From contig JBGFRZ010000042.1 in the NCBI GenBank assembly GCA_041694835.1, positions 1 to 36,389 on the forward strand: 36,389 nucleotides of DNA. Direction: 5' to 3'. Shown here one piece after another: positions 7,192 through 28,035 of the stretch; position 1 is the first letter of the stretch; the number at the start of each line of letters is the position of its first letter. This stretch comes from Ignavibacteria bacterium. Lineage in GTDB: Bacteria > Elusimicrobiota > Endomicrobiia > PHAN01. Under the pieces are notes generated by a model that had not been told where the DNA came from, made no database searches, and saw only the letters and a program-made list of their open reading frames with translations. The position numbers and the translations under genes were made by a program.

Positions 7192-8190
7192 ATGCCTCTT
7201 GATTTTTTTCTTGACGGTCAAAACTACGAAAAAATAGCCGATACTGTCAAACCGTCCGCGGAAAAACTTTATGACCTCATTATACTGGGAGGAGGGCCGG
7301 CGGGAATGACGGCATCTGTCTATGCCTCAAGAAAAATGCTCGAGACGCTTCTCATAACGGAAAACATCGGCGGACAGCCGCTCCTTACGGTCGCCATAGA
7401 AAACTATATGGGGTATCAGTACATAACCGGAAACGACCTTTCTGAAAAGTTCTCAACCCAAATGAAGCAGTTTCCCATCGCTATTTTGGAAAAAGATATC
7501 GCCAAAAAAATTTTTGCGGAAAAACAAGGATTTTCCGTCGGCACAAAGAGTGGAAAAAAATTCAGGGCAAAAACACTCATCATCGCCACAGGCAAAAGAT
7601 ACAGAGAACTCGGCGTGCCGGGCGAAAAAAAACTCGTGGGAAAAGGCGTGGCGTACTGCACCGCCTGCGATGCCCCGCTTTTCAAAGATAAGGATGTCGC
7701 CGTAATCGGCGGGGGAAATTCCGCTCTTACCTCGGTAATCGATTTGATGAAAATCGCAAGGAAGATTTATCTAATCAACAATCTTGACACCCTTCAAGGC
7801 GACCCGATTTTGCAGAAAAAAATCAAATCAACTGGGCGAACAAATGTTCGCCCCGAACAAATGTTCGGTTATTCTGTGATTGAAATCGGCGGGGGAAATT
7901 CCGTCGAAAGTATAACGATAAAATCAAAATCTGGTGAAACAAAGACTCTACTGGTCAGCGGGGTTTTTATAGAAATTGGGCTCGTGCCGAACTCTGATTT
8001 TGCCGAAGGATTGCTGGAACTCAACGAAAACCGCGAGATTCTCGTCGACTGCAGCTCGAGAACATCGGCTGATGGTATCTTTGCCGCGGGTGATGTAACA
8101 TCAGTCACCGAAAAGCAGATAATCGTCGCCGCCGGCGAAGGTGCAAAAGCCGCGCTCGGCGCCTACAGATATTTGGTGAATAAAAAATAA
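7192..8190 (+). CDS. trxB: Thioredoxin-disulfide reductase (TrxB/AhpF C-terminal-like)
   Basis: GGGPAG FAD motif, YCTACDAP CxxC, VIGGGNSA NAD(P)H motif, FAAGD. Confidence 0.85.
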   Translation: MPLDFFLDGQNYEKIADTVKPSAEKLYDLIILGGGPAGMTASVYASRKMLETLLITENIGGQPLLTVAIENYMGYQYITGNDLSEKFSTQMKQFPIAILEKDIAKKIFAEKQGFSVGTKSGKKFRAKTLIIATGKRYRELGVPGEKKLVGKGVAYCTACDAPLFKDKDVAVIGGGNSALTSVIDLMKIARKIYLINNLDTLQGDPILQKKIKSTGRTNVRPEQMFGYSVIEIGGGNSVESITIKSKSGETKTLLVSGVFIEIGLVPNSDFAEGLLELNENREILVDCSSRTSADGIFAAGDVTSVTEKQIIVAAGEGAKAALGAYRYLVNKK

Positions 8191-22411: not shown

Positions 22412-23479
22412 ATGAGCGACATAAAGAAACTTAGAGGAAAAATAGACACCATAGATGCCGAGATACTGAAACTCCTTTTAAGGAGGGGGGACATCGCAAA
22501 GAAGATAGGGGGCGTAAAAAAGGAAAGCGATGCCGATTTTTACGTACCATCGAGGGAAAAGGAGATACTTTTAAAGATAAAAAATAAGGACATATCTCCG
22601 TTTACTCCGGAGTCAATCGAAAGTATATTCAGGGAGATACTCAACGCATCTCGTTCCGTAGAGCGGAAAATTAGGGTGGCGTATCTGGGTCCCGCTGCAA
22701 CTTTTACCCATCAGGCTGCCATAAAAAATTTCGGCGTAAACGCGGATTTCATACCGGCAGAAAGCATATCGGACGTCTTCGCTGAAGTCGAGAGAAAAAG
22801 AGCGGACTACGGAGTTGTCCCTGTCGAAAACACCTCGGAGGGAATAGTTACGCACACTCTCGATATGTTTTTCAATTCCGATATGAAGATAGTCTCGGAG
22901 ATAAATCTGCAGATAGAACACTGCCTGCTTTCGAAATCAAAATGGACGGGTTCCGTAAAAGCCATTTATTCACATCCGCAGGCCTTCGCTCAGACAAGAA
23001 AATGGATACACAAAAACTGTCCCACAGCTAAACTCAAAGAAACGCTTTCGACAGCGATGGCGGCAGCTATCGCGCGAAATGAAAAGAACTCGGCCGCCAT
23101 AGCAAGTGCTGTAGCTGCAAAGTTATACAGCTTAAACATTATTGCTTCAGGAATAGAGGATATAAAAGAAAACTTCACGAGATTTCTTATAATCGGGCAC
23201 AACATATCGGAGTCCTCGAAAAACGACAAGACGTCTGTTATGATATCCCTCAAAGACAGGGTCGGAGCACTCCACGACATGCTCATCCCTTTCAAGAAAA
23301 ACAAGATAAATCTCACAAAGATAGAATCCAGACCGACGAAAAGAAAGGCATGGGAGTACGTCTTTTTCATAGATTTTCTCGGGCATATATCTGATGAAAA
23401 CGTAAAGGCGGCGCTCGGTGAGGTGGAAAAAAACAGTAACTTCATAAAAATACTAGGCTCTTACCCTAAGGCAGAATAA
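22412..23479 (+). CDS. pheA: Chorismate mutase/prephenate dehydratase (P-protein)
   Basis: LRGKIDTIDAEIL (CM), AYLGPAATFTH, PVENTSEG, NFTRF, ACT domain LTKIESRP. Confidence 0.95.
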   Translation: MSDIKKLRGKIDTIDAEILKLLLRRGDIAKKIGGVKKESDADFYVPSREKEILLKIKNKDISPFTPESIESIFREILNASRSVERKIRVAYLGPAATFTHQAAIKNFGVNADFIPAESISDVFAEVERKRADYGVVPVENTSEGIVTHTLDMFFNSDMKIVSEINLQIEHCLLSKSKWTGSVKAIYSHPQAFAQTRKWIHKNCPTAKLKETLSTAMAAAIARNEKNSAAIASAVAAKLYSLNIIASGIEDIKENFTRFLIIGHNISESSKNDKTSVMISLKDRVGALHDMLIPFKKNKINLTKIESRPTKRKAWEYVFFIDFLGHISDENVKAALGEVEKNSNFIKILGSYPKAE

Positions 23480-23523
23480 ATAATAAATGTGGCCTATGGT
23501 TCTAATCGGGGGGAGTGGAGCGA

Positions 23524-24633
23524 ATGATGGAAGTAAAAAAAATTATAAGACCTTGTGTAAGAAACTTATCGCCATACGTCGCGGGAATGCCCATAGCGGC
23601 CGTCAAAAAACAGTTCGGGATTAAAAAAGTGGTGAAGCTCGCATCAAACGAAAATCCTCTCGGACCTTCCAGAAAAGCTGTCGGCTTTTTGATAAAAAAC
23701 ATCAAAAAAATAAATCTTTATCCCGACAGTGATTCAGTTAATATAAGAAGCGCTATCGCCCGAAAATACGGCATCTCTCCTAAAAACATCATTGTCGGTT
23801 CCGGTTCAGATGAGTTAATAGAGATAATAGCAAAGACATTTTTCAACCCCATCGACGAGATAATCGTCTCAAAACACGCTTTTATCAGATATAAGATGGC
23901 GGGCGATTTGATGAACTGTAAAGTCATTGAAGTGCCGATGAAAAATTTTAAGCACGCTCTTGATGCGATGGCAAGCGCCGTTACAAAAAAAACAAAAGCG
24001 ATTTTTGTGGCAAATCCCAACAATCCAACCGGCACTTACAACACAAAAAAAGAAGTTGAAAAGTTTTTAAACTCACCTCTTACCTCTCACCTCTCGCCTC
24101 TTATTGTTATCGACGAAGCATATTACGAATACGCAAAAATCAACCGCGATTATCCTGAAACGCTCAAATATCTTAAAAAATATCCAAATCTAATAATACT
24201 TAGGACTTTTTCGAAAATTTACGGACTCGCAGGGCTCAGACTCGGATATGCGTTCACTTCAAAAGAAATAATTGATGAACTCAACAAAATCAAACCGCCC
24301 TTTAATGTGAGTTCATCCGCTCAATCTGCCGGCATTGCAGCACTCACCGATGAAAAACATCTCAAAAACTCTGTAAATCTCGTCGAAAAAGAAAAATCGC
24401 TTCTTTACAAAACTTTAGACAAGATGCGAATCAAACATGTAAAATCCGCCGGGAATTTTATTCTAATAGATACAAAACCATTTACAGGAAAAAAGATTTT
24501 TGAGCAATTGCTTAAAAATGGTGTAATCGTGCGAGCAATGGATGAATACGAACTTCCATATCATATCAGATTGACAATAGGACTACCTTCGGAAAATAAA
24601 TTATTCATAAAGGAGTTGAAAAAACTTATATGA
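23524..24633 (+). CDS. hisC: Histidinol-phosphate/aromatic aminotransferase
   Basis: KLASNENPLGPS, NPNNPTG, DEAYYE, RTFSKIYGLAGLRLGY. Start may be 23515, 23524 or 23527. Confidence 0.92.
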   Translation: MMEVKKIIRPCVRNLSPYVAGMPIAAVKKQFGIKKVVKLASNENPLGPSRKAVGFLIKNIKKINLYPDSDSVNIRSAIARKYGISPKNIIVGSGSDELIEIIAKTFFNPIDEIIVSKHAFIRYKMAGDLMNCKVIEVPMKNFKHALDAMASAVTKKTKAIFVANPNNPTGTYNTKKEVEKFLNSPLTSHLSPLIVIDEAYYEYAKINRDYPETLKYLKKYPNLIILRTFSKIYGLAGLRLGYAFTSKEIIDELNKIKPPFNVSSSAQSAGIAALTDEKHLKNSVNLVEKEKSLLYKTLDKMRIKHVKSAGNFILIDTKPFTGKKIFEQLLKNGVIVRAMDEYELPYHIRLTIGLPSENKLFIKELKKLI

Positions 24634-25643
24634 TAATCACACTTAAAAACGGAGCAACAAAAAATCAAATCGACGCCGTTGTAAACAAAATAAAAAAATT
24701 GAAGTACATCCCACATATATCCCGCGGCGTTGACAAGACAATAATAGGTATGATAGGCGAAAGGGCGGAGAAGTACCGCGATATATTCGAGGCGATGGAT
24801 GTGGTAGACCACATAAGCGAAATAGAAAAACCATATAAATTGGCGAGTCGCGAATTTAAAAAAGAAAATACCGTTATAAATGTAAGCGGCGTAAAAATCG
24901 GCGGGAGTGAAATCGTCATAATAGCCGGCCCATGCGCCATAGAAAAAAAGGAACTCATCGTAAAAATAGCCAGGATGATAAAGTCAGCGGGAGCGAAGGG
25001 ATTGAGAGGCGGGGCATTTAAGCCGAGGACTTCTCCGTATGCTTTTCAGGGTATTGGTGAAAAGGGGCTAAAATTACTTGCGGAAGCAAAAAAAACAACA
25101 GGTCTTCTTACCACAACCGAAGTGATGAATGTCACACAGGTAAATCTTGTTTCAAAATACGCCGACATAATACAAATAGGGGCAAGAAATATTCAAAACT
25201 ACGACCTTTTAAAAGCTGTCGGAAAATTGAAAAATCCCATACTTCTCAAAAGGGGAATGTCCACGACGGTCAAAGAACTCCTTCTTTCGGCGGAATACAT
25301 AATGTCAGGCGGAAATCACAAAGTGATTTTATGCGAACGAGGAATAAGAACTTTCGAGGATTCGACGAGGTTCACGCTTGACCTAAACGCGGTACCCGTC
25401 CTTAAAAAACTCTCGCATCTTCCTGTTTTCGTCGACCCATCTCACGGTATTGGCATAAGAGAACATGTGCCCGCCATGGCGAAAGCATCGCTCGCTGCCG
25501 GCGCCGACGGACTTGCCATAGAAGTCCATCCAAAGCCCGAAGAAGCCCTCTCCGACGGACCACAGTCACTCCTGCCAAATCAGTTCGAAAAGCTGATGAG
25601 CGAGTTAAAAATCCTCGCAAGGGCACTCGGAAGAAATTTATGA
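24630..25643 (+). CDS. aroF: 3-deoxy-7-phosphoheptulonate (DAHP) synthase, type I-beta with N-terminal regulatory domain
   Basis: IAGPCAIE, RGGAFKPRTSPY, IGARN, LCERGIRTF, DPSH, SDGPQSL. Confidence 0.95.
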   Translation: MIITLKNGATKNQIDAVVNKIKKLKYIPHISRGVDKTIIGMIGERAEKYRDIFEAMDVVDHISEIEKPYKLASREFKKENTVINVSGVKIGGSEIVIIAGPCAIEKKELIVKIARMIKSAGAKGLRGGAFKPRTSPYAFQGIGEKGLKLLAEAKKTTGLLTTTEVMNVTQVNLVSKYADIIQIGARNIQNYDLLKAVGKLKNPILLKRGMSTTVKELLLSAEYIMSGGNHKVILCERGIRTFEDSTRFTLDLNAVPVLKKLSHLPVFVDPSHGIGIREHVPAMAKASLAAGADGLAIEVHPKPEEALSDGPQSLLPNQFEKLMSELKILARALGRNL

Positions 25644-26710
25644 TAGTTTCAATTATAGGCGTCGGGCTTATAGGTGGCTCCATCGGGCTTGCTTTGAAGA
25701 AAATAGAGAAAAAAAGTGCCCTTAAAATAATCGGGGTTGGAAGAAATATTGAGAGGTTAAAGTTAGCTCAAAAACTCGGATCGGTCGACGAAATAACAAT
25801 CGACTTAAAAAAAGGCGTCAAAGACGCCGATATAATTTTTGTCTGTCTCCCCGTCGGTTTTATCGCCGATACAATAAAAAAAATCGCCTATTTCTGCAAA
25901 AAAAATGCCATAATAACCGACGTTGGCAGCGTCAAAGCCCCGATAGTTTCTGAAGTCGAAAAGTTTTTCACCAATCACCAATCACCATCCGCCAATCACT
26001 GCAGTTTTATCGGCGGTCATCCCATTGCCGGCTCCGAGAAGACCTCAGTAAAATACGCCGACAAAAATCTTTATAAAAATGCGACTGTGATATTGACGCC
26101 GTGCAAATATACGAGCAAAGTCGCTCTCTCAAAAATTAAATCTCTCTGGAAAAAAATGGGCAGTCTTGTAAAAATAATGTCTCCGTCAAAACACGACACA
26201 ATACTCGCAGAGACGAGCCATCTGCCTCACATAGTTGCTTTCGCTCTTGTAAATGCGGTAAAAAATCCAGACTACACCGGCAGCGGATTTAAAGATACGA
26301 CAAGAATCGCGTCATCAGACCCGAAAATGTGGGCTGGCATAATTTTCAATAACCGAACAAATGTTCGCTCTGCGATAAAAAGTTTCAAAAAAGAAATCTC
26401 AAAAATCGAAAAAGCGAGAAACTTAGACGATTTTATAAAAATTTTTAGGAGTGCGAAAGAAAAACGGGATATGTTACTAAAAAAAAGCAAACCTTTATAC
26501 GAAAGTGAACTCATCAAATTTATCAAAACTTCTTTTAATAAACGGAAAATCCCGCCTACTGTGAGAGAAGTTGCGAAATATTTTCAGGTCTCTATTTCAA
26601 CAGCATATAAACATTTAAATCGATTATCCGATAAAAATTTGATTTCCAAACGATTATCTCAGCATAGCAATAGGCATGTGGCCAGAGGAATACGTATAAT
26701 CAAGAAATAA
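25640..26710 (+). CDS. tyrA: Prephenate/arogenate dehydrogenase fused to a C-terminal LexA-like winged-helix DNA-binding domain
   Basis: GVGLIGGS, TDVGSVK, GGHPIAGSE, SHLPH, GFKDTTRIASSDPKMW; then about 75 extra aa with IPPTVREVAKYFQVSISTAYKHLNRL...ARGIRII. Confidence 0.88.
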   Translation: MIVSIIGVGLIGGSIGLALKKIEKKSALKIIGVGRNIERLKLAQKLGSVDEITIDLKKGVKDADIIFVCLPVGFIADTIKKIAYFCKKNAIITDVGSVKAPIVSEVEKFFTNHQSPSANHCSFIGGHPIAGSEKTSVKYADKNLYKNATVILTPCKYTSKVALSKIKSLWKKMGSLVKIMSPSKHDTILAETSHLPHIVAFALVNAVKNPDYTGSGFKDTTRIASSDPKMWAGIIFNNRTNVRSAIKSFKKEISKIEKARNLDDFIKIFRSAKEKRDMLLKKSKPLYESELIKFIKTSFNKRKIPPTVREVAKYFQVSISTAYKHLNRLSDKNLISKRLSQHSNRHVARGIRIIKK

Positions 26711-26713
26711 TCC

Positions 26714-26744
26714 CGAACATTTGTTCGGGGCGAACATTTGTTCG
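26714..26744. promoter_or_regulatory. Tandem CGAAC-ATTT-GTTCG palindromes (LexA/Cheo-box pattern) or REP-like doublet
   Basis: Two identical 14-mers at 26714-26727 and 26731-26744, between the tyrA stop and the aroA start. Confidence 0.5.
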
Positions 26745-26769
26745 CTATGTCGATGTTTGTTTTTTTGAT

Positions 26770-28035
26770 ATGAACAAATTCAGAAGAATAACCGGTGAAA
26801 TTTATGTTGCGCCGGATAAGTCGATATCACACAGGGCGATTATGATTGCTGCCATCGCCGAAGGGATTTCCCGCATAAAAAACTTTCTTTATGCCGACGA
26901 CTGCATATCGACTATTAAATGTTTTCAGAAACTCGGCGTCGAAGTTGTGGATGAAAAAAATGAAATAATTGTCAAAGGCAAAGGTCCAAACCTTGCCAAC
27001 CCTTTAGATGTTTTAGACGCTGTAAACTCAGGCACTACTGCGCGGCTGCTTTCCGGAATTCTCGCGGGACAAAATTTCTCGTCAAAAATTATCGGCGACG
27101 AGTCACTTTCGAAAAGGCCGATGAAAAGAATAATTGAGCCACTTGAAAAAATGGGTGCAAAAATCAGAGCGCGAGAAAATAATTTTCTTCCGATTGAAAT
27201 AACAGGGGGAAAACTTAAACCCATAAATTACAACTCTAAAATAACATCGGCTCAGGTAAAATCCTGCGTGCTTCTTGCCGGACTTTACGCCGACGGGGTC
27301 ACAAAATTTTCAGAACCGCATAAATCCCGCGACCACACAGAAAGGATGCTTGAAAACTTCGGCGCACAAATAGAATCAAACAAAAATACTATGACTATAA
27401 AAGGAATAGCGAAACTTAAAGCGTCTGATATTCTCGTCCCAGGCGATATTTCATCGGCCGCTTTTTTTGTGGTTGCGGCTACAATAATTAAAAATTCAAA
27501 ATTAAGAATTAAAAATGTTGGTGTCAACCCAACGAGAACGGGAATAATCGACATAATGTCAAGAATGGGCGCAAAAATTTTTTTTGAAAATGAAAAAACA
27601 ATAAACAACGAGCCGATAGCAGACATAATCGTAGAATCGTCCCAGTTGAAGTCCACCATCATAAAAGGCTCTGACATACCGCGCCTAATTGATGAAATTC
27701 CCGTCATAGCGGTTGCGGCAACTCAATCGGAAGGCGAGACACTCATCATGGAAGCAAAGGAACTCAGGGTCAAGGAGACGGACCGACTTAAAGCGGTCGC
27801 GTCTGAACTCAAAAAAATGGGAGCGGATATAGAAGAACTCGAAGATGGTTTAATTATCTGCGGCCCGACAAAACTAAAAGGTGCGAAAGTGGAGTCACGC
27901 AACGACCACAGAATGGCGATGTCACTGACCATAGCGTCGCTTGTTGCCGACGGAAAGACGACGCTCAAAAATCCCGAATGCGTCAATATTTCATTTCCAT
28001 TATTCTATGAAACGCTTAAAAAAATTACAAAATGA
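26770..28035 (+). CDS. aroA: 3-phosphoshikimate 1-carboxyvinyltransferase (EPSP synthase)
   Basis: DKSISHRA, NSGTT, RPMKR, SAQVKS, SRDHTE, ELRVKETDR, DHRMAM. Confidence 0.96.
   Translation: MNKFRRITGEIYVAPDKSISHRAIMIAAIAEGISRIKNFLYADDCISTIKCFQKLGVEVVDEKNEIIVKGKGPNLANPLDVLDAVNSGTTARLLSGILAGQNFSSKIIGDESLSKRPMKRIIEPLEKMGAKIRARENNFLPIEITGGKLKPINYNSKITSAQVKSCVLLAGLYADGVTKFSEPHKSRDHTERMLENFGAQIESNKNTMTIKGIAKLKASDILVPGDISSAAFFVVAATIIKNSKLRIKNVGVNPTRTGIIDIMSRMGAKIFFENEKTINNEPIADIIVESSQLKSTIIKGSDIPRLIDEIPVIAVAATQSEGETLIMEAKELRVKETDRLKAVASELKKMGADIEELEDGLIICGPTKLKGAKVESRNDHRMAMSLTIASLVADGKTTLKNPECVNISFPLFYETLKKITK

What the first reader, a model, noticed from the sequence alone, without database searches (positions are those of the whole stretch)
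25640..26710. Prephenate dehydrogenase fused to a LexA-type DNA-binding domain: candidate enzyme-repressor
Seen: after a complete TyrA core (ending near AKEKRD, about aa 277) the ORF continues in frame with LYESELIKFIKTSFNKRKIPPTVREVAKYFQVSISTAYKHLNRLSDKNLISKR...ARGIRII. Known: this matches the LexA N-terminal winged helix (PPSVREI...STV..HL..L..KG.I.R...RGIRI), but the Ala-Gly cleavage site and S24 peptidase/dimerisation domain are absent. TyrA proteins are homodimers, and their usual C-terminal extension is an ACT domain rather than an HTH. Inference: TyrA could supply the dimerisation and a tyrosine/prephenate/NAD(H) sensor, making a 'trigger enzyme' (cf. BirA, NadR, PutA) that regulates the aro operon. 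An in-frame ATG at 26471 raises the alternative of a recent read-through fusion.
Basis: partly seen in the sequence, partly recalled or inferred. Interest (0 to 1): 0.85.

Follow-up and report, generated by a model that had tools for sequence, protein, structure and literature searches.

The report
Tyrosine enzyme fused to LexA-type DNA binder
The only prephenate dehydrogenase of this Elusimicrobiota genome carries a conserved LexA-type DNA-binding tail, followed directly by two copies of a matching palindrome, and this tail-plus-site unit belongs to a rare family of tiny DNA-binding genes that each travel with their own binding sites.

Summary
ORF 25640-26710 encodes a complete TyrA core plus a C-terminal LexA_DNA_bind winged helix with no S24 domain. 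It is not a recent read-through: nine 90%-identity protein clusters carry the fusion, DNA for four fused loci is in hand, the tail is under purifying selection like the core, and M278 is not conserved.

New here: two CGAACA-NN-TGTTCG palindromes start 4 nt after the stop codon, before aroA. This pair is present in 4 of 4 fused loci and 0 of 4 unfused loci.

The tail belongs to a rare family of 70-100-aa "mini-LexA" genes wedged into unrelated operons. Of 23 such genes, 18 have a palindrome at their 3' end, and its half-site changes with the recognition helix. A predicted GGACA-box enrichment was confirmed.

Best reading (about 0.5): a TyrA dimer presents two winged helices to the adjacent boxes as an operon-local DNA binder, captured from a cassette.

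Against a simple aro regulator: G000's 56 boxes lie beside unrelated genes, none lies upstream of the window's operon, the boxes fold as hairpins, and three genomes have boxes without a detected GAACA-type module.

No ligand response is shown.

The parts
25640..26710 (+). tyrA-wHTH fusion gene, 356 aa; the only PDH_N match above cut-off in the genome
25688..26167 (+). PDH_N nucleotide-binding domain (aa 17-176)
   Evidence: 123.7 bits; one search gives the coordinates
26180..26416 (+). PDH_C dimerisation domain (aa 181-259); the predicted homodimer interface spans aa 188-280
26354..26367 (.). CGAACAAATGTTCG box inside the tyrA coding sequence, encoding R-T-N-V-R of the clade-specific NNRTNVR motif
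26471..26503 (+). Linker (aa 278-288). It begins with the non-conserved M278, roughly where unfused TyrA proteins end
26504..26701 (+). LexA-N-type winged helix (aa 289-354; Pfam core 26507-26647)
26671..26700 (+). Promoter-like match TAGGCA-18-TATAAT (10 of 12), ending 14 nt before box 1. This is a consensus match only
26714..26727 (.). Box 1, CGAACATTTGTTCG, starting 4 nt after the stop codon
26731..26744 (.). Box 2, CGAACATTTGTTCG, 17 bp after box 1 and 26 nt before the aroA start
26770..28035 (+). aroA (EPSP synthase), the gene downstream of the box pair
22412..25643 (+). Upstream operon genes: pheA (CM_2-PDT-ACT) 22412-23479, class I/II aminotransferase 23515-24633, DAHP synthase 24630-25643. 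No box in or before them
7837..7867 (.). A second tandem pair of the same box, in frame inside a pyridine-nucleotide-disulphide oxidoreductase gene (7192-8190), read as RTNVRPEQMF

Best explanation
The gene encodes the organism's working prephenate/arogenate dehydrogenase, with a LexA-N-type winged helix added to its C-terminus. The tail and the two CGAACA-NN-TGTTCG palindromes that follow it form one unit of about 300 bp sitting in the tyrA|aroA junction. This unit is a captured member of a family of small 'mini-LexA' genes that each carry their own cognate palindrome.

Inferred mechanism: the TyrA core dimerises and holds two winged helices side by side, doing what the missing S24 domain does in LexA. 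The dimer then binds the palindromic boxes next to its own gene, and in relatives also boxes ahead of tyrA and of the aminotransferase gene. That would modulate transcription into aroA and the rest of the operon by blocking RNA polymerase or occluding an internal promoter.

Shown: the fusion, its conservation and selection, the LexA-type fold, the predicted dimer, and the strict co-occurrence of tail and box pair.
Inferred: DNA binding to these boxes and the regulatory effect.
Speculative: control by tyrosine, prephenate or NAD(P)H.
For: 1. The fusion is real and maintained.
- 9 of the 120 listed homologues carry the tail.
- DNA is in hand for four distinct fused loci: the window, L137 (same sequence as L138), G148 and G129.
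- Tail dN/dS is 0.16, 0.09 and 0.11 for the three unsaturated pairs, against 0.17, 0.16 and 0.14 for the core.
- It is the sole PDH_N above cut-off in a 97%-complete genome.

2. The tail is LexA-type.

3. Dimer prediction.
- Score 0.75, best of 3 controls 0.00.
- The mark was reached by 20 of 30 proteins solved as pairs of one chain and by 1 of 23 solved as single chains.
- Runs agree in at least 80% of contacts, and partner pLDDT is at least 81.
- TyrA dimers are already solved, so the pass may come from the model's memory of them.

4. Boxes are far above chance.
- 5 in the window against 0.07 expected; 0 of 100 shuffles reach 5.
- A tandem pair begins 4-5 nt after the stop in 4 of 4 fused loci and is absent between tyrA and aroA in 0 of 4 unfused loci (G125, G140, G144, G150).
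- Across these loci dS is saturated, yet both half-sites are invariant while the central NN and the inter-box spacer vary.

5. Module and site vary together.
- 18 of 23 module genes have a perfect xxxCA-NN-TGxxx palindrome within -30..+90 of their stop, against 10 of 79 other ORFs in the same loci and 30 of 1603 G000 ORFs.
- Half-sites (GAACA, GGACA, GTACA, GAGCA, AAGCA) change with the recognition helix.

6. A prediction was tested. Genomes with GGACA-type modules are enriched in GGACANNTGTCC: G150 11, G142 17, G129 27, with controls 0, 0, 2. G000 has 2 and G001 has 1.

7. CGAACN4GTTCG is the published B. subtilis and S. aureus LexA operator (PMC9578287 Table 1; passage read).

8. In L137 all 8 boxes lie in the aro operon and none in the other 5.7 kb.
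Against: - The window has no box upstream of pheA or the aminotransferase gene.
- G000 has 56 perfect boxes at 45 loci. The genes at its other 12 TyrA-type (C/G-flanked) loci have no aromatic theme: MTHFR, Fur/ExbB, pyruvate kinase, PurD/PurE and MobA/XdhC flank arrays, and boxes also fall within open frames matching CobA, ThiC, an amidohydrolase and a TrxR-like protein.
- G140 (22 boxes), G142 (42) and G144 (7) have CGAAC boxes but no GAACA-type module at E <= 1e-17. G018 has a module and 0 boxes.
- On the sense strand the box pair folds into two stable RNA hairpins (-23.9 kcal/mol, z -5.1). In L137 one box is a terminator-like hairpin with a T-run.
- Canonical lexA loci of 28 relatives show no perfect GAAC-N4-GTTC within about 1.5 kb, so the box is not simply the class's SOS operator.
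- The operator position, downstream of the regulator's own gene, is unusual.
- No binding, expression or ligand data exist.
Confidence: 0.5

Rival explanations
1. Mobile or selfish cassette reading. The tail plus boxes is a small inserting element (a wHTH gene bracketed by its own palindromic ends) that landed in frame behind tyrA. The winged helix serves the element, for example in site recognition, copy control or maintenance. Fusion to TyrA has no role in aromatic amino-acid control.
For: - Modules are wedged between genes of unrelated operons. They lie between parA and parB in G000, L140-L142 and L163-L165, with parA-wHTH also at the contig end in L139. They lie between two ABC permease genes in L162 and L167, between a CitMHS transporter and dapB in L171, and are fused to a LacI-family regulator in G018.
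- Boxes bracket the module genes in G150, G142 and G129.
- There are up to 5 modules per genome, plus dozens of orphan boxes, some in frame inside genes.
- The TyrA tree needs at least 3 gains or losses of the tail (quick tree).
- G000's TyrA is 62-67% identical to those of another class but only 48% to its own family's.
- Earlier notes describe other inserted repeats and cassettes in this genome.
Against: - An 80-aa winged helix has no catalytic domain. No longer protein with this domain was found in G000 (2 PF01726 matches only).
- The tail is held under purifying selection in frame with TyrA across saturated divergence.
- The junction is the same in all fused proteins, which fits one ancient capture followed by losses.
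Confidence: 0.25
2. The boxes are structural hairpins (terminator, mRNA-stability or REP-like elements) that have nothing to do with the tail. The winged helix binds some other DNA, or has a role that does not involve DNA.
For: - The box pair forms stable RNA hairpins.
- Terminator-like hits overlap the boxes: 8 found against 3.6 +/- 1.8 expected in L137.
- Most G000 boxes sit about 20 nt after a stop codon in short gaps between genes.
- Several genomes have boxes without a matching module.
Against: - Half-sites stay invariant while the loop and spacer vary across saturated divergence.
- Half-site type tracks the module's recognition helix, and the GGACA prediction held.
- The tail and box pair co-occur strictly: 4 of 4 fused against 0 of 4 unfused.
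- The box equals a published LexA operator.
- The in-CDS box is kept at the DNA level: P = 0.0017 from codon usage, yet present in 5 of 8 distinct tyrA loci.
Confidence: 0.15
3. A non-cleavable LexA substitute. With canonical LexA missing, the two LexA-N modules of G000 act as global SOS-type repressors, and the TyrA fusion is incidental.
For: - G000 has no canonical LexA: the only PF01726 matches are the tail and an 88-aa protein, and the only S24 match is a 114-aa ORF beside a radical SAM gene.
- The box equals the Gram-positive SOS box.
Against: - None of the 20 proteins examined at box loci is a DNA-repair protein.
- Without an S24 domain there is no RecA-dependent induction.
Confidence: 0.05
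4. Artefact or split gene: an assembly or frameshift error, or the tail is translated separately from ATG 26471.
For: An in-frame ATG exists at 26471.
Against: - The same continuous frame occurs in nine independent protein clusters and four DNA loci.
- M278 is not conserved.
- No stop or frameshift is present.
Confidence: 0.03

Closest known systems
LexA repressor N-terminal DNA-binding domain (Pfam PF01726; PDB 3k2z, 1lea, 3jso)
   Same: Sequence and predicted fold match: three helices plus a wing. The adjacent palindrome matches the published B. subtilis/S. aureus operator CGAACN4GTTCG.
   Different: The domain is C-terminal rather than N-terminal. There is no S24 peptidase or dimerisation domain and no cleavage site. 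No link to DNA-repair genes was seen among the neighbours examined, and dimerisation would have to come from TyrA.
Bifunctional enzyme-repressors ('trigger enzymes'): BirA, PutA, NadR (recalled from memory); archaeal riboflavin kinase/regulator RbkR (PMC5397151, abstract only)
   Same: A pathway enzyme and a DNA-binding domain in one polypeptide, encoded among genes of its own pathway.
   Different: In those cases the DNA-binding domain is N-terminal (recalled) and ligand-coupled binding has been shown. Here the domain is C-terminal, the sites lie downstream of the gene, the same sites are scattered genome-wide, and no ligand coupling is known.
TyrA C-terminal fusions TyrA-ACT, TyrA-REG and TyrA-AroF (Song et al. 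2005, PMC1173090; passages read)
   Same: An extension added to the C-terminus of the roughly 30-kDa catalytic core.
   Different: Those add allosteric or catalytic domains. 'DNA-binding' occurs 0 times in that paper's text.
Dispersed palindromic repeats: REP/BIME, Rickettsia palindromic elements, MITEs
   Same: Short palindromes in many copies, in gaps between operon genes and sometimes in frame inside genes.
   Different: The units here are only 14-16 bp, often in 17-18-bp tandem arrays. Each subfamily is paired with a small winged-helix gene whose recognition helix varies with the half-site. No transposase is associated as far as I looked.

Membership tests
TyrA / prephenate-arogenate dehydrogenase | PDH_N Rossmann domain and PDH_C dimerisation domain, both full length | tested here: met
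   123.7 and 73.4 bits, covering profile positions 3-151 of 154 and 1-87 of 102; prephenate dehydrogenase equivalog models align over aa 3-284 but score below their own cut-offs.
TyrA / prephenate-arogenate dehydrogenase | Conserved catalytic-core residues (GxGxxG; His of the GGHP motif; Arg of the TTRIA motif). The roles of these residues are recalled from memory. | tested here: met
   G7, G9, G12, H127 and R222 are invariant or nearly invariant across fused and unfused proteins.
TyrA / prephenate-arogenate dehydrogenase | Dehydrogenase activity and substrate preference | not testable with these tools
   It is the only PDH_N above cut-off in a 97%-complete genome, so activity is expected.
LexA repressor (TIGR00498) | N-terminal winged-helix DNA-binding domain | tested here: met
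   Here the domain is C-terminal.
LexA repressor (TIGR00498) | C-terminal S24 peptidase/dimerisation domain with a self-cleavage site | tested here: not met
   No PF00717 match. TIGR00498 scores 25.5 bits against a cut-off of 110.95 and aligns only positions 9-69 of 203.
LexA repressor (TIGR00498) | Operators upstream of DNA-repair genes and of its own gene | tested here: inconclusive
   None of 20 proteins examined at box loci is a repair protein. recA and uvr loci were not examined.
Trigger enzyme (functional class) | Enzyme and DNA-binding domain in one chain, with binding sites at genes of its own pathway | tested here: inconclusive
   A box pair lies between tyrA and aroA in 4 of 4 fused loci. 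Boxes lie upstream of the aminotransferase gene in 3 of 4 assessable loci, but not in the window. Binding has not been shown.
Trigger enzyme (functional class) | DNA binding switched by the enzyme's substrate, product or cofactor | not testable with these tools
   No data.
REP/MITE-like dispersed palindromic repeat (for the boxes) | Many dispersed copies, palindromic, mostly between genes | tested here: met
   56 copies at 45 loci; 0-4 in genomes without modules.
REP/MITE-like dispersed palindromic repeat (for the boxes) | A cognate transposase (for example a RAYT; recalled from memory) | not tested
   No search for Y1 or DDE transposases was run.

The most novel reading that the evidence does not exclude
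The tail is one captured copy of an undescribed class of self-contained 'mini-LexA' cassettes. Each is a winged-helix gene of about 80 aa, bracketed or followed by its own cognate palindrome. The cassettes move between and within Elusimicrobiota genomes, wedge into operons (parA|parB, permease|permease, tyrA|aroA) and seed dozens of orphan sites. Their DNA specificity has diversified in step with their sites (GAACA, GGACA, GTACA, GAGCA, AAGCA). By capturing one, TyrA gained dimer-dependent DNA binding and became a DNA-tethered enzyme-regulator.
Probability: 0.35. Interest if true: 0.85.

Novelty: new variant of a known kind. Interest (0 to 1): 0.7.

Why it matters
**New TyrA architecture.** A DNA-binding TyrA is a domain architecture that neither the TyrA family survey I read nor my three literature searches describe. 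If it binds DNA, it adds a biosynthetic dehydrogenase to the short list of enzyme-repressors. It would also show an enzyme's dimer interface replacing LexA's own dimerisation domain.

**Natural protein-DNA pairs.** The paired modules and palindromes give a natural series of closely related winged helices with different, readable half-sites. That makes the recognition code of the LexA-type domain directly testable.

**Origin of short palindromes.** It may also explain where some families of short dispersed palindromes in uncultured bacteria come from.

Tried and rejected
- **Genome-contig scan with the whole-protein alignment:** the patterns matched all TyrA proteins. Of 80 loci kept, only L004 was a close relative, later recognised as the same contig as G140:C91.
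- **Tail searched against longer proteins:** found only the window's own protein and P0002, so it says nothing about other fusions.
- **Sequencing runs:** none was listed, so read laying was not used and the junction could not be checked with reads. No RNA holder was listed.
- **Rfam on 26300-26900:** two matches far below their gathering scores (21.9 against 90; 20.9 against 50). Rejected.
- **Canonical lexA loci of 28 relatives:** no perfect GAAC-N4-GTTC box, so the idea that the box is this class's ordinary SOS operator was dropped.
- **'Aro regulon' in G000:** rejected after annotating 20 proteins at box loci.
- **Careful maximum-likelihood tree:** did not finish in 300 s. The quick tree (SH-aLRT only) was used. 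P0039 and P0041 were dropped as fragments, and only the first 70 of 120 hits were offered to the tree.
- **Full-length monomer model:** only moderate (pLDDT 70.7; the dimerisation region is below 50) and was not used for fold searches.
- **Literature:** no paper was found on a TyrA-HTH fusion or on LexA-N-only modules. This covers only the held library, supplements were closed, and InterPro architecture tables could not be consulted.
- **Ten longer hits of the exhaustive profile search:** 0 of 10 carry an enzyme domain other than S24.
Full report
**Observation**

Pfam on the whole protein gives:
- PDH_N, aa 17-176, 123.7 bits.
- PDH_C, aa 181-259, 73.4 bits.
- LexA_DNA_bind, aa 290-336, 29.8 bits against a gathering cut-off of 23.7. 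The tail alone scores 33.2 bits.

All other HTH families fall below their cut-offs. The NCBIfam lexA model aligns only its N-terminal positions 9-69 of 203. No S24 match is present.

A profile of ten tails hits LexA best among solved structures (3k2z, E 4.5e-10), and 9 of the 14 listed sequences are LexA. The tail model has pLDDT 76.7, and 9 of its top 10 Foldseek hits are LexA chains.

The gene sits in an aromatic operon:
- pheA (CM-PDT-ACT), 22412-23479.
- Aminotransferase, 23515-24633.
- DAHP synthase, 24630-25643.
- tyrA-wHTH.
- aroA, 26770-28035.

**Is the fusion real and maintained?**

Yes.
- Nine of the 120 listed homologues carry the tail: P0001-P0007, P0009 and the fragment P0041. Their identity to the window's protein is 58-81%, and all share the same junction.
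- M278 is not conserved. The other fused proteins have S, N, A, D, K or R there.
- DNA is in hand for four distinct fused loci: the window, L137 (same sequence as L138), G148 and G129.
- For the three pairs where synonymous sites are not saturated, tail dN/dS is 0.16, 0.09 and 0.11, against 0.17, 0.16 and 0.14 for the core.
- The fused gene is the only PDH_N above cut-off in this 97%-complete genome, so it should be the working enzyme.
- A homodimer prediction passes with score 0.75 against a best control of 0.00. The mark was reached by 20 of 30 proteins solved as pairs of one chain and by 1 of 23 solved as single chains. Runs agree in at least 80% of contacts, and partner pLDDT is at least 81.
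- The predicted interface spans aa 188-280, so it ends at the linker and the two tails emerge together. TyrA dimers are already solved, so this pass may come from the model's memory of them.

**The boxes**

CGAAC-N4-GTTCG occurs 5 times in the window against 0.07 expected, and 0 of 100 shuffles reach 5. The five sites are:
- A tandem pair at 26714 and 26731, starting 4 nt after the stop codon.
- One inside tyrA at 26354.
- A tandem pair at 7837 and 7854, in frame inside an oxidoreductase gene.

This is the operator listed for B. subtilis and S. aureus LexA (PMC9578287 Table 1; passage read).

At the tyrA|aroA junction:
- The pair is present in 4 of 4 fused loci and absent in 0 of 4 distinct unfused loci (G125, G140, G144, G150). 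In G125, G140 and G144 the tyrA and aroA frames overlap, and in G150 they are 13 nt apart.
- Among the fused loci the half-sites CGAACA and TGTTCG are invariant, while the central two bases and the spacer between boxes vary.

Elsewhere in relatives' aro operons:
- L137 has 8 boxes, all within the aro operon: three ahead of the aminotransferase gene, a pair between the DAHP synthase and tyrA, one in the CDS, and the pair after the stop.
- L137 has none in the remaining 5.7 kb.
- G148 and G140 also have boxes ahead of the aminotransferase gene.

The in-CDS box:
- It encodes R-T-N-V-R.
- Given G000 codon usage, that peptide would be box-encoded with probability 0.0017. It is box-encoded in 5 of 8 distinct tyrA loci.
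- The NRTNVR peptide occurs in only 20 of 120 TyrA homologues, all among the closest relatives.

**The tail belongs to a family of small modules**

In G000:
- The only other PF01726 match is an 88-aa protein between parA and parB. It is 35% identical to the tail, E 9e-14.
- G000 has no canonical LexA. Its only S24 match is a 114-aa ORF beside a radical SAM gene.

Taxonomic spread:
- In 122 genomes of the window's class, canonical-size LexA frames are common, but the close tail type (E below 1e-29) occurs only in G000 and G018.
- In G018 the module is fused to a LacI-family regulator: LacI + Peripla_BP + LexA_DNA_bind at 67.6 bits.
- In 401 genomes of the phylum, modules at E <= 1e-17 occur in 9: G000, G018 and 7 of 11 sampled genomes of family f19. 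Those carry one to five copies each, mostly 77-100 aa.
- In 1.84 billion representative proteins, only 87 score E <= 1e-10.

Where stand-alone modules sit:
- Between parA and parB in G000, L140-L142 and L163-L165, with parA-wHTH also at the contig end in L139.
- Between two ABC permease genes in L162 and L167.
- Between a CitMHS transporter and dapB in L171.

**Module and site vary together**

| Gene set | With a perfect xxxCA-NN-TGxxx palindrome within -30..+90 of the stop |
|---|---|
| Module genes | 18 of 23 |
| Other ORFs in the same loci | 10 of 79 |
| All crude G000 ORFs | 30 of 1603 |

Some of the 23 are close kin, so they are not independent. The five without a perfect palindrome are G018 and four par-type modules that instead carry an imperfect repeated ACTACAAATGT motif.

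The half-site differs by subfamily, together with the recognition-helix sequence:
- GAACA: the tyrA tails, and the par-type modules of G000, L163 and L139.
- GGACA: L161, L162, L167, L168 and L171.
- GTACA: L169 and L145.
- GAGCA: L172 and L173.
- AAGCA: L170.

From this I predicted that G150, which has two GGACA-type modules but only one CGAAC box, would be enriched in GGACANNTGTCC.

| Genome | GGACANNTGTCC count | Control |
|---|---|---|
| G150 | 11 | 0 |
| G142 | 17 | 0 |
| G129 | 27 | 2 |
| G000 | 2 | 1 |
| G001 | 1 | 1 |

The prediction held, and in G150, G142 and G129 these boxes bracket the module genes.

CGAAC-box counts:

| Genome | CGAACNNNNGTTCG count | Control |
|---|---|---|
| G000 | 56 | not run |
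| G129 | 53 | 2 |
| G142 | 42 | 0 |
| G140 | 22 | 0 |
| G148 | 8 | 1 |
| G144 | 7 | 0 |
| G125 | 6 | 0 |
| G150 | 1 | 0 |
| G001 | 4 | 1 |
| G002 | 3 | 4 |
| G014 | 1 | 1 |
| G005 | 0 | 2 |
| G018 | 0 | 0 |

**What speaks against a simple enzyme-repressor of the aro operon**

- The window has no box ahead of pheA or the aminotransferase gene.
- G000's boxes fall into 29 T/A-flanked copies (the type next to the par-linked module), 23 C/G-flanked copies at 13 loci (the tyrA type) and 4 mixed.
- The genes at the other 12 tyrA-type loci are unrelated to aromatic metabolism.
- G140, G142 and G144 have CGAAC boxes without a detected GAACA-type module, though G140 and G142 are 86% and 89% complete and G142's tyrA was not found.
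- The box pair folds into two stable RNA hairpins, z -5.1. One L137 box looks like a terminator.
- Canonical lexA loci of 28 relatives carry no perfect GAAC-N4-GTTC box.
- The promoter-like match at 26671-26700, ending 14 nt before box 1, is only a consensus match.

**History**

- In a quick tree of 68 TyrA cores, fused proteins are interleaved with unfused ones inside a single clade. Well-supported branches force at least 3 gains or losses of the tail.
- G000's TyrA is 62-67% identical to those of family f19, which belongs to another class. It is only 48% identical to those of its own family, G001 and G002, which lack both modules and boxes.
- This fits lateral acquisition of the gene or the operon, followed by expansion of boxes in G000.
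- Earlier notes on this genome describe other inserted repeats and cassettes between operon genes and in frame inside genes. I did not re-test those notes.

**Reading**

I commit to this reading: a real, selected TyrA-wHTH whose winged helices, paired by the TyrA dimer, bind the adjacent boxes and act locally on the operon. The tail-plus-boxes unit derives from a cassette-like module family.

Confidence for the separate steps:
- Fusion is real: about 0.95.
- Tail is LexA-type: about 0.9.
- Tail binds these boxes: about 0.6.
- It regulates aroA or the operon: about 0.4.
- It responds to a metabolite: about 0.25.

**Comparison and novelty**

- The protein is a member of the TyrA family. It is not a LexA, because the S24 domain, the cleavage site and the N-terminal position are all not met. 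It carries only a LexA_DNA_bind domain.
- It would work like BirA, PutA, NadR (recalled from memory) or RbkR (PMC5397151, abstract only).
- The 2005 TyrA family survey lists AroQ, AroF, HisHb, ACT and REG as fusion partners and never uses the term 'DNA-binding' (PMC1173090; passages read).
- Searches found no description of this fusion or of LexA-N-only modules. Supplements and InterPro could not be consulted.

Noticed in passing
G000:C54:38753-39019 (L001 1447-1713, minus strand): An 88-aa stand-alone LexA_DNA_bind protein (47.7 bits) lies between parA and parB, with a CGAACAAATGTTCG box 19 nt after its stop. The same parA-wHTH-parB order recurs in L140-L142 and L163-L165, with parA-wHTH also at the contig end in L139. 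It could be a partition or nucleoid-associated factor.
   Followed up: partly
window 7837-7867, inside ORF 7192-8190: A tandem box pair sits in frame in a pyridine-nucleotide-disulphide oxidoreductase gene and is read as RTNVRPEQMF. All 6 RTNVR peptides found in G000 ORFs are box-encoded. Boxes also fall within open frames matching CobA, ThiC and an amidohydrolase.
   Followed up: partly
L085 409-1734 (G018:C34): A LacI-family regulator (LacI HTH + Peripla_BP) carries the same C-terminal LexA-type module at 67.6 bits, giving it two DNA-binding domains. No palindrome follows the gene, and G018 has 0 CGAAC boxes.
   Followed up: partly
L162 1474-1746 and L167 1204-1461: In two genomes, GGACA-type modules lie between the two permease genes of an oligopeptide-type ABC transporter. 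Their last codons run through the palindrome, giving ...KRTNVRK.
   Followed up: partly
G000 genome-wide (29 copies; for example C54:36716, C84:112034): The T/A-flanked boxes are the core of an element of about 45 nt with conserved arms (...cagacgg-aaaatt-box-aat.tt-ccgacg...). It typically fills gaps of about 50 nt between co-directional genes. The arm resembles the leader just before parB in the par-type loci.
   Followed up: no
L003 1504-1848 (G000:C48): A 114-aa stand-alone Peptidase_S24-like ORF lies next to a radical SAM gene. A stretch of low-complexity repeats lies between the two genes.
   Followed up: no
L137 6331-6368: In L137 and G148 the two boxes after the fused gene are reverse complements of each other, so the pair forms a perfect 17-bp stem with a 4-nt loop. 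In the window the two boxes are direct copies.
   Followed up: no
P0121, P0123, P0125: Proteins of 689-818 aa match the HTH part of the tail profile in 8-12 repeated stretches. These appear to be long arrays of winged-helix repeats of unknown function.
   Followed up: no
L191, L192 compared with L175, L176, L187-L190: G000's TyrA is closer to those of a different class (62-67% identity) than to its own family's (48%), which suggests lateral transfer of the gene or the operon.
   Followed up: partly
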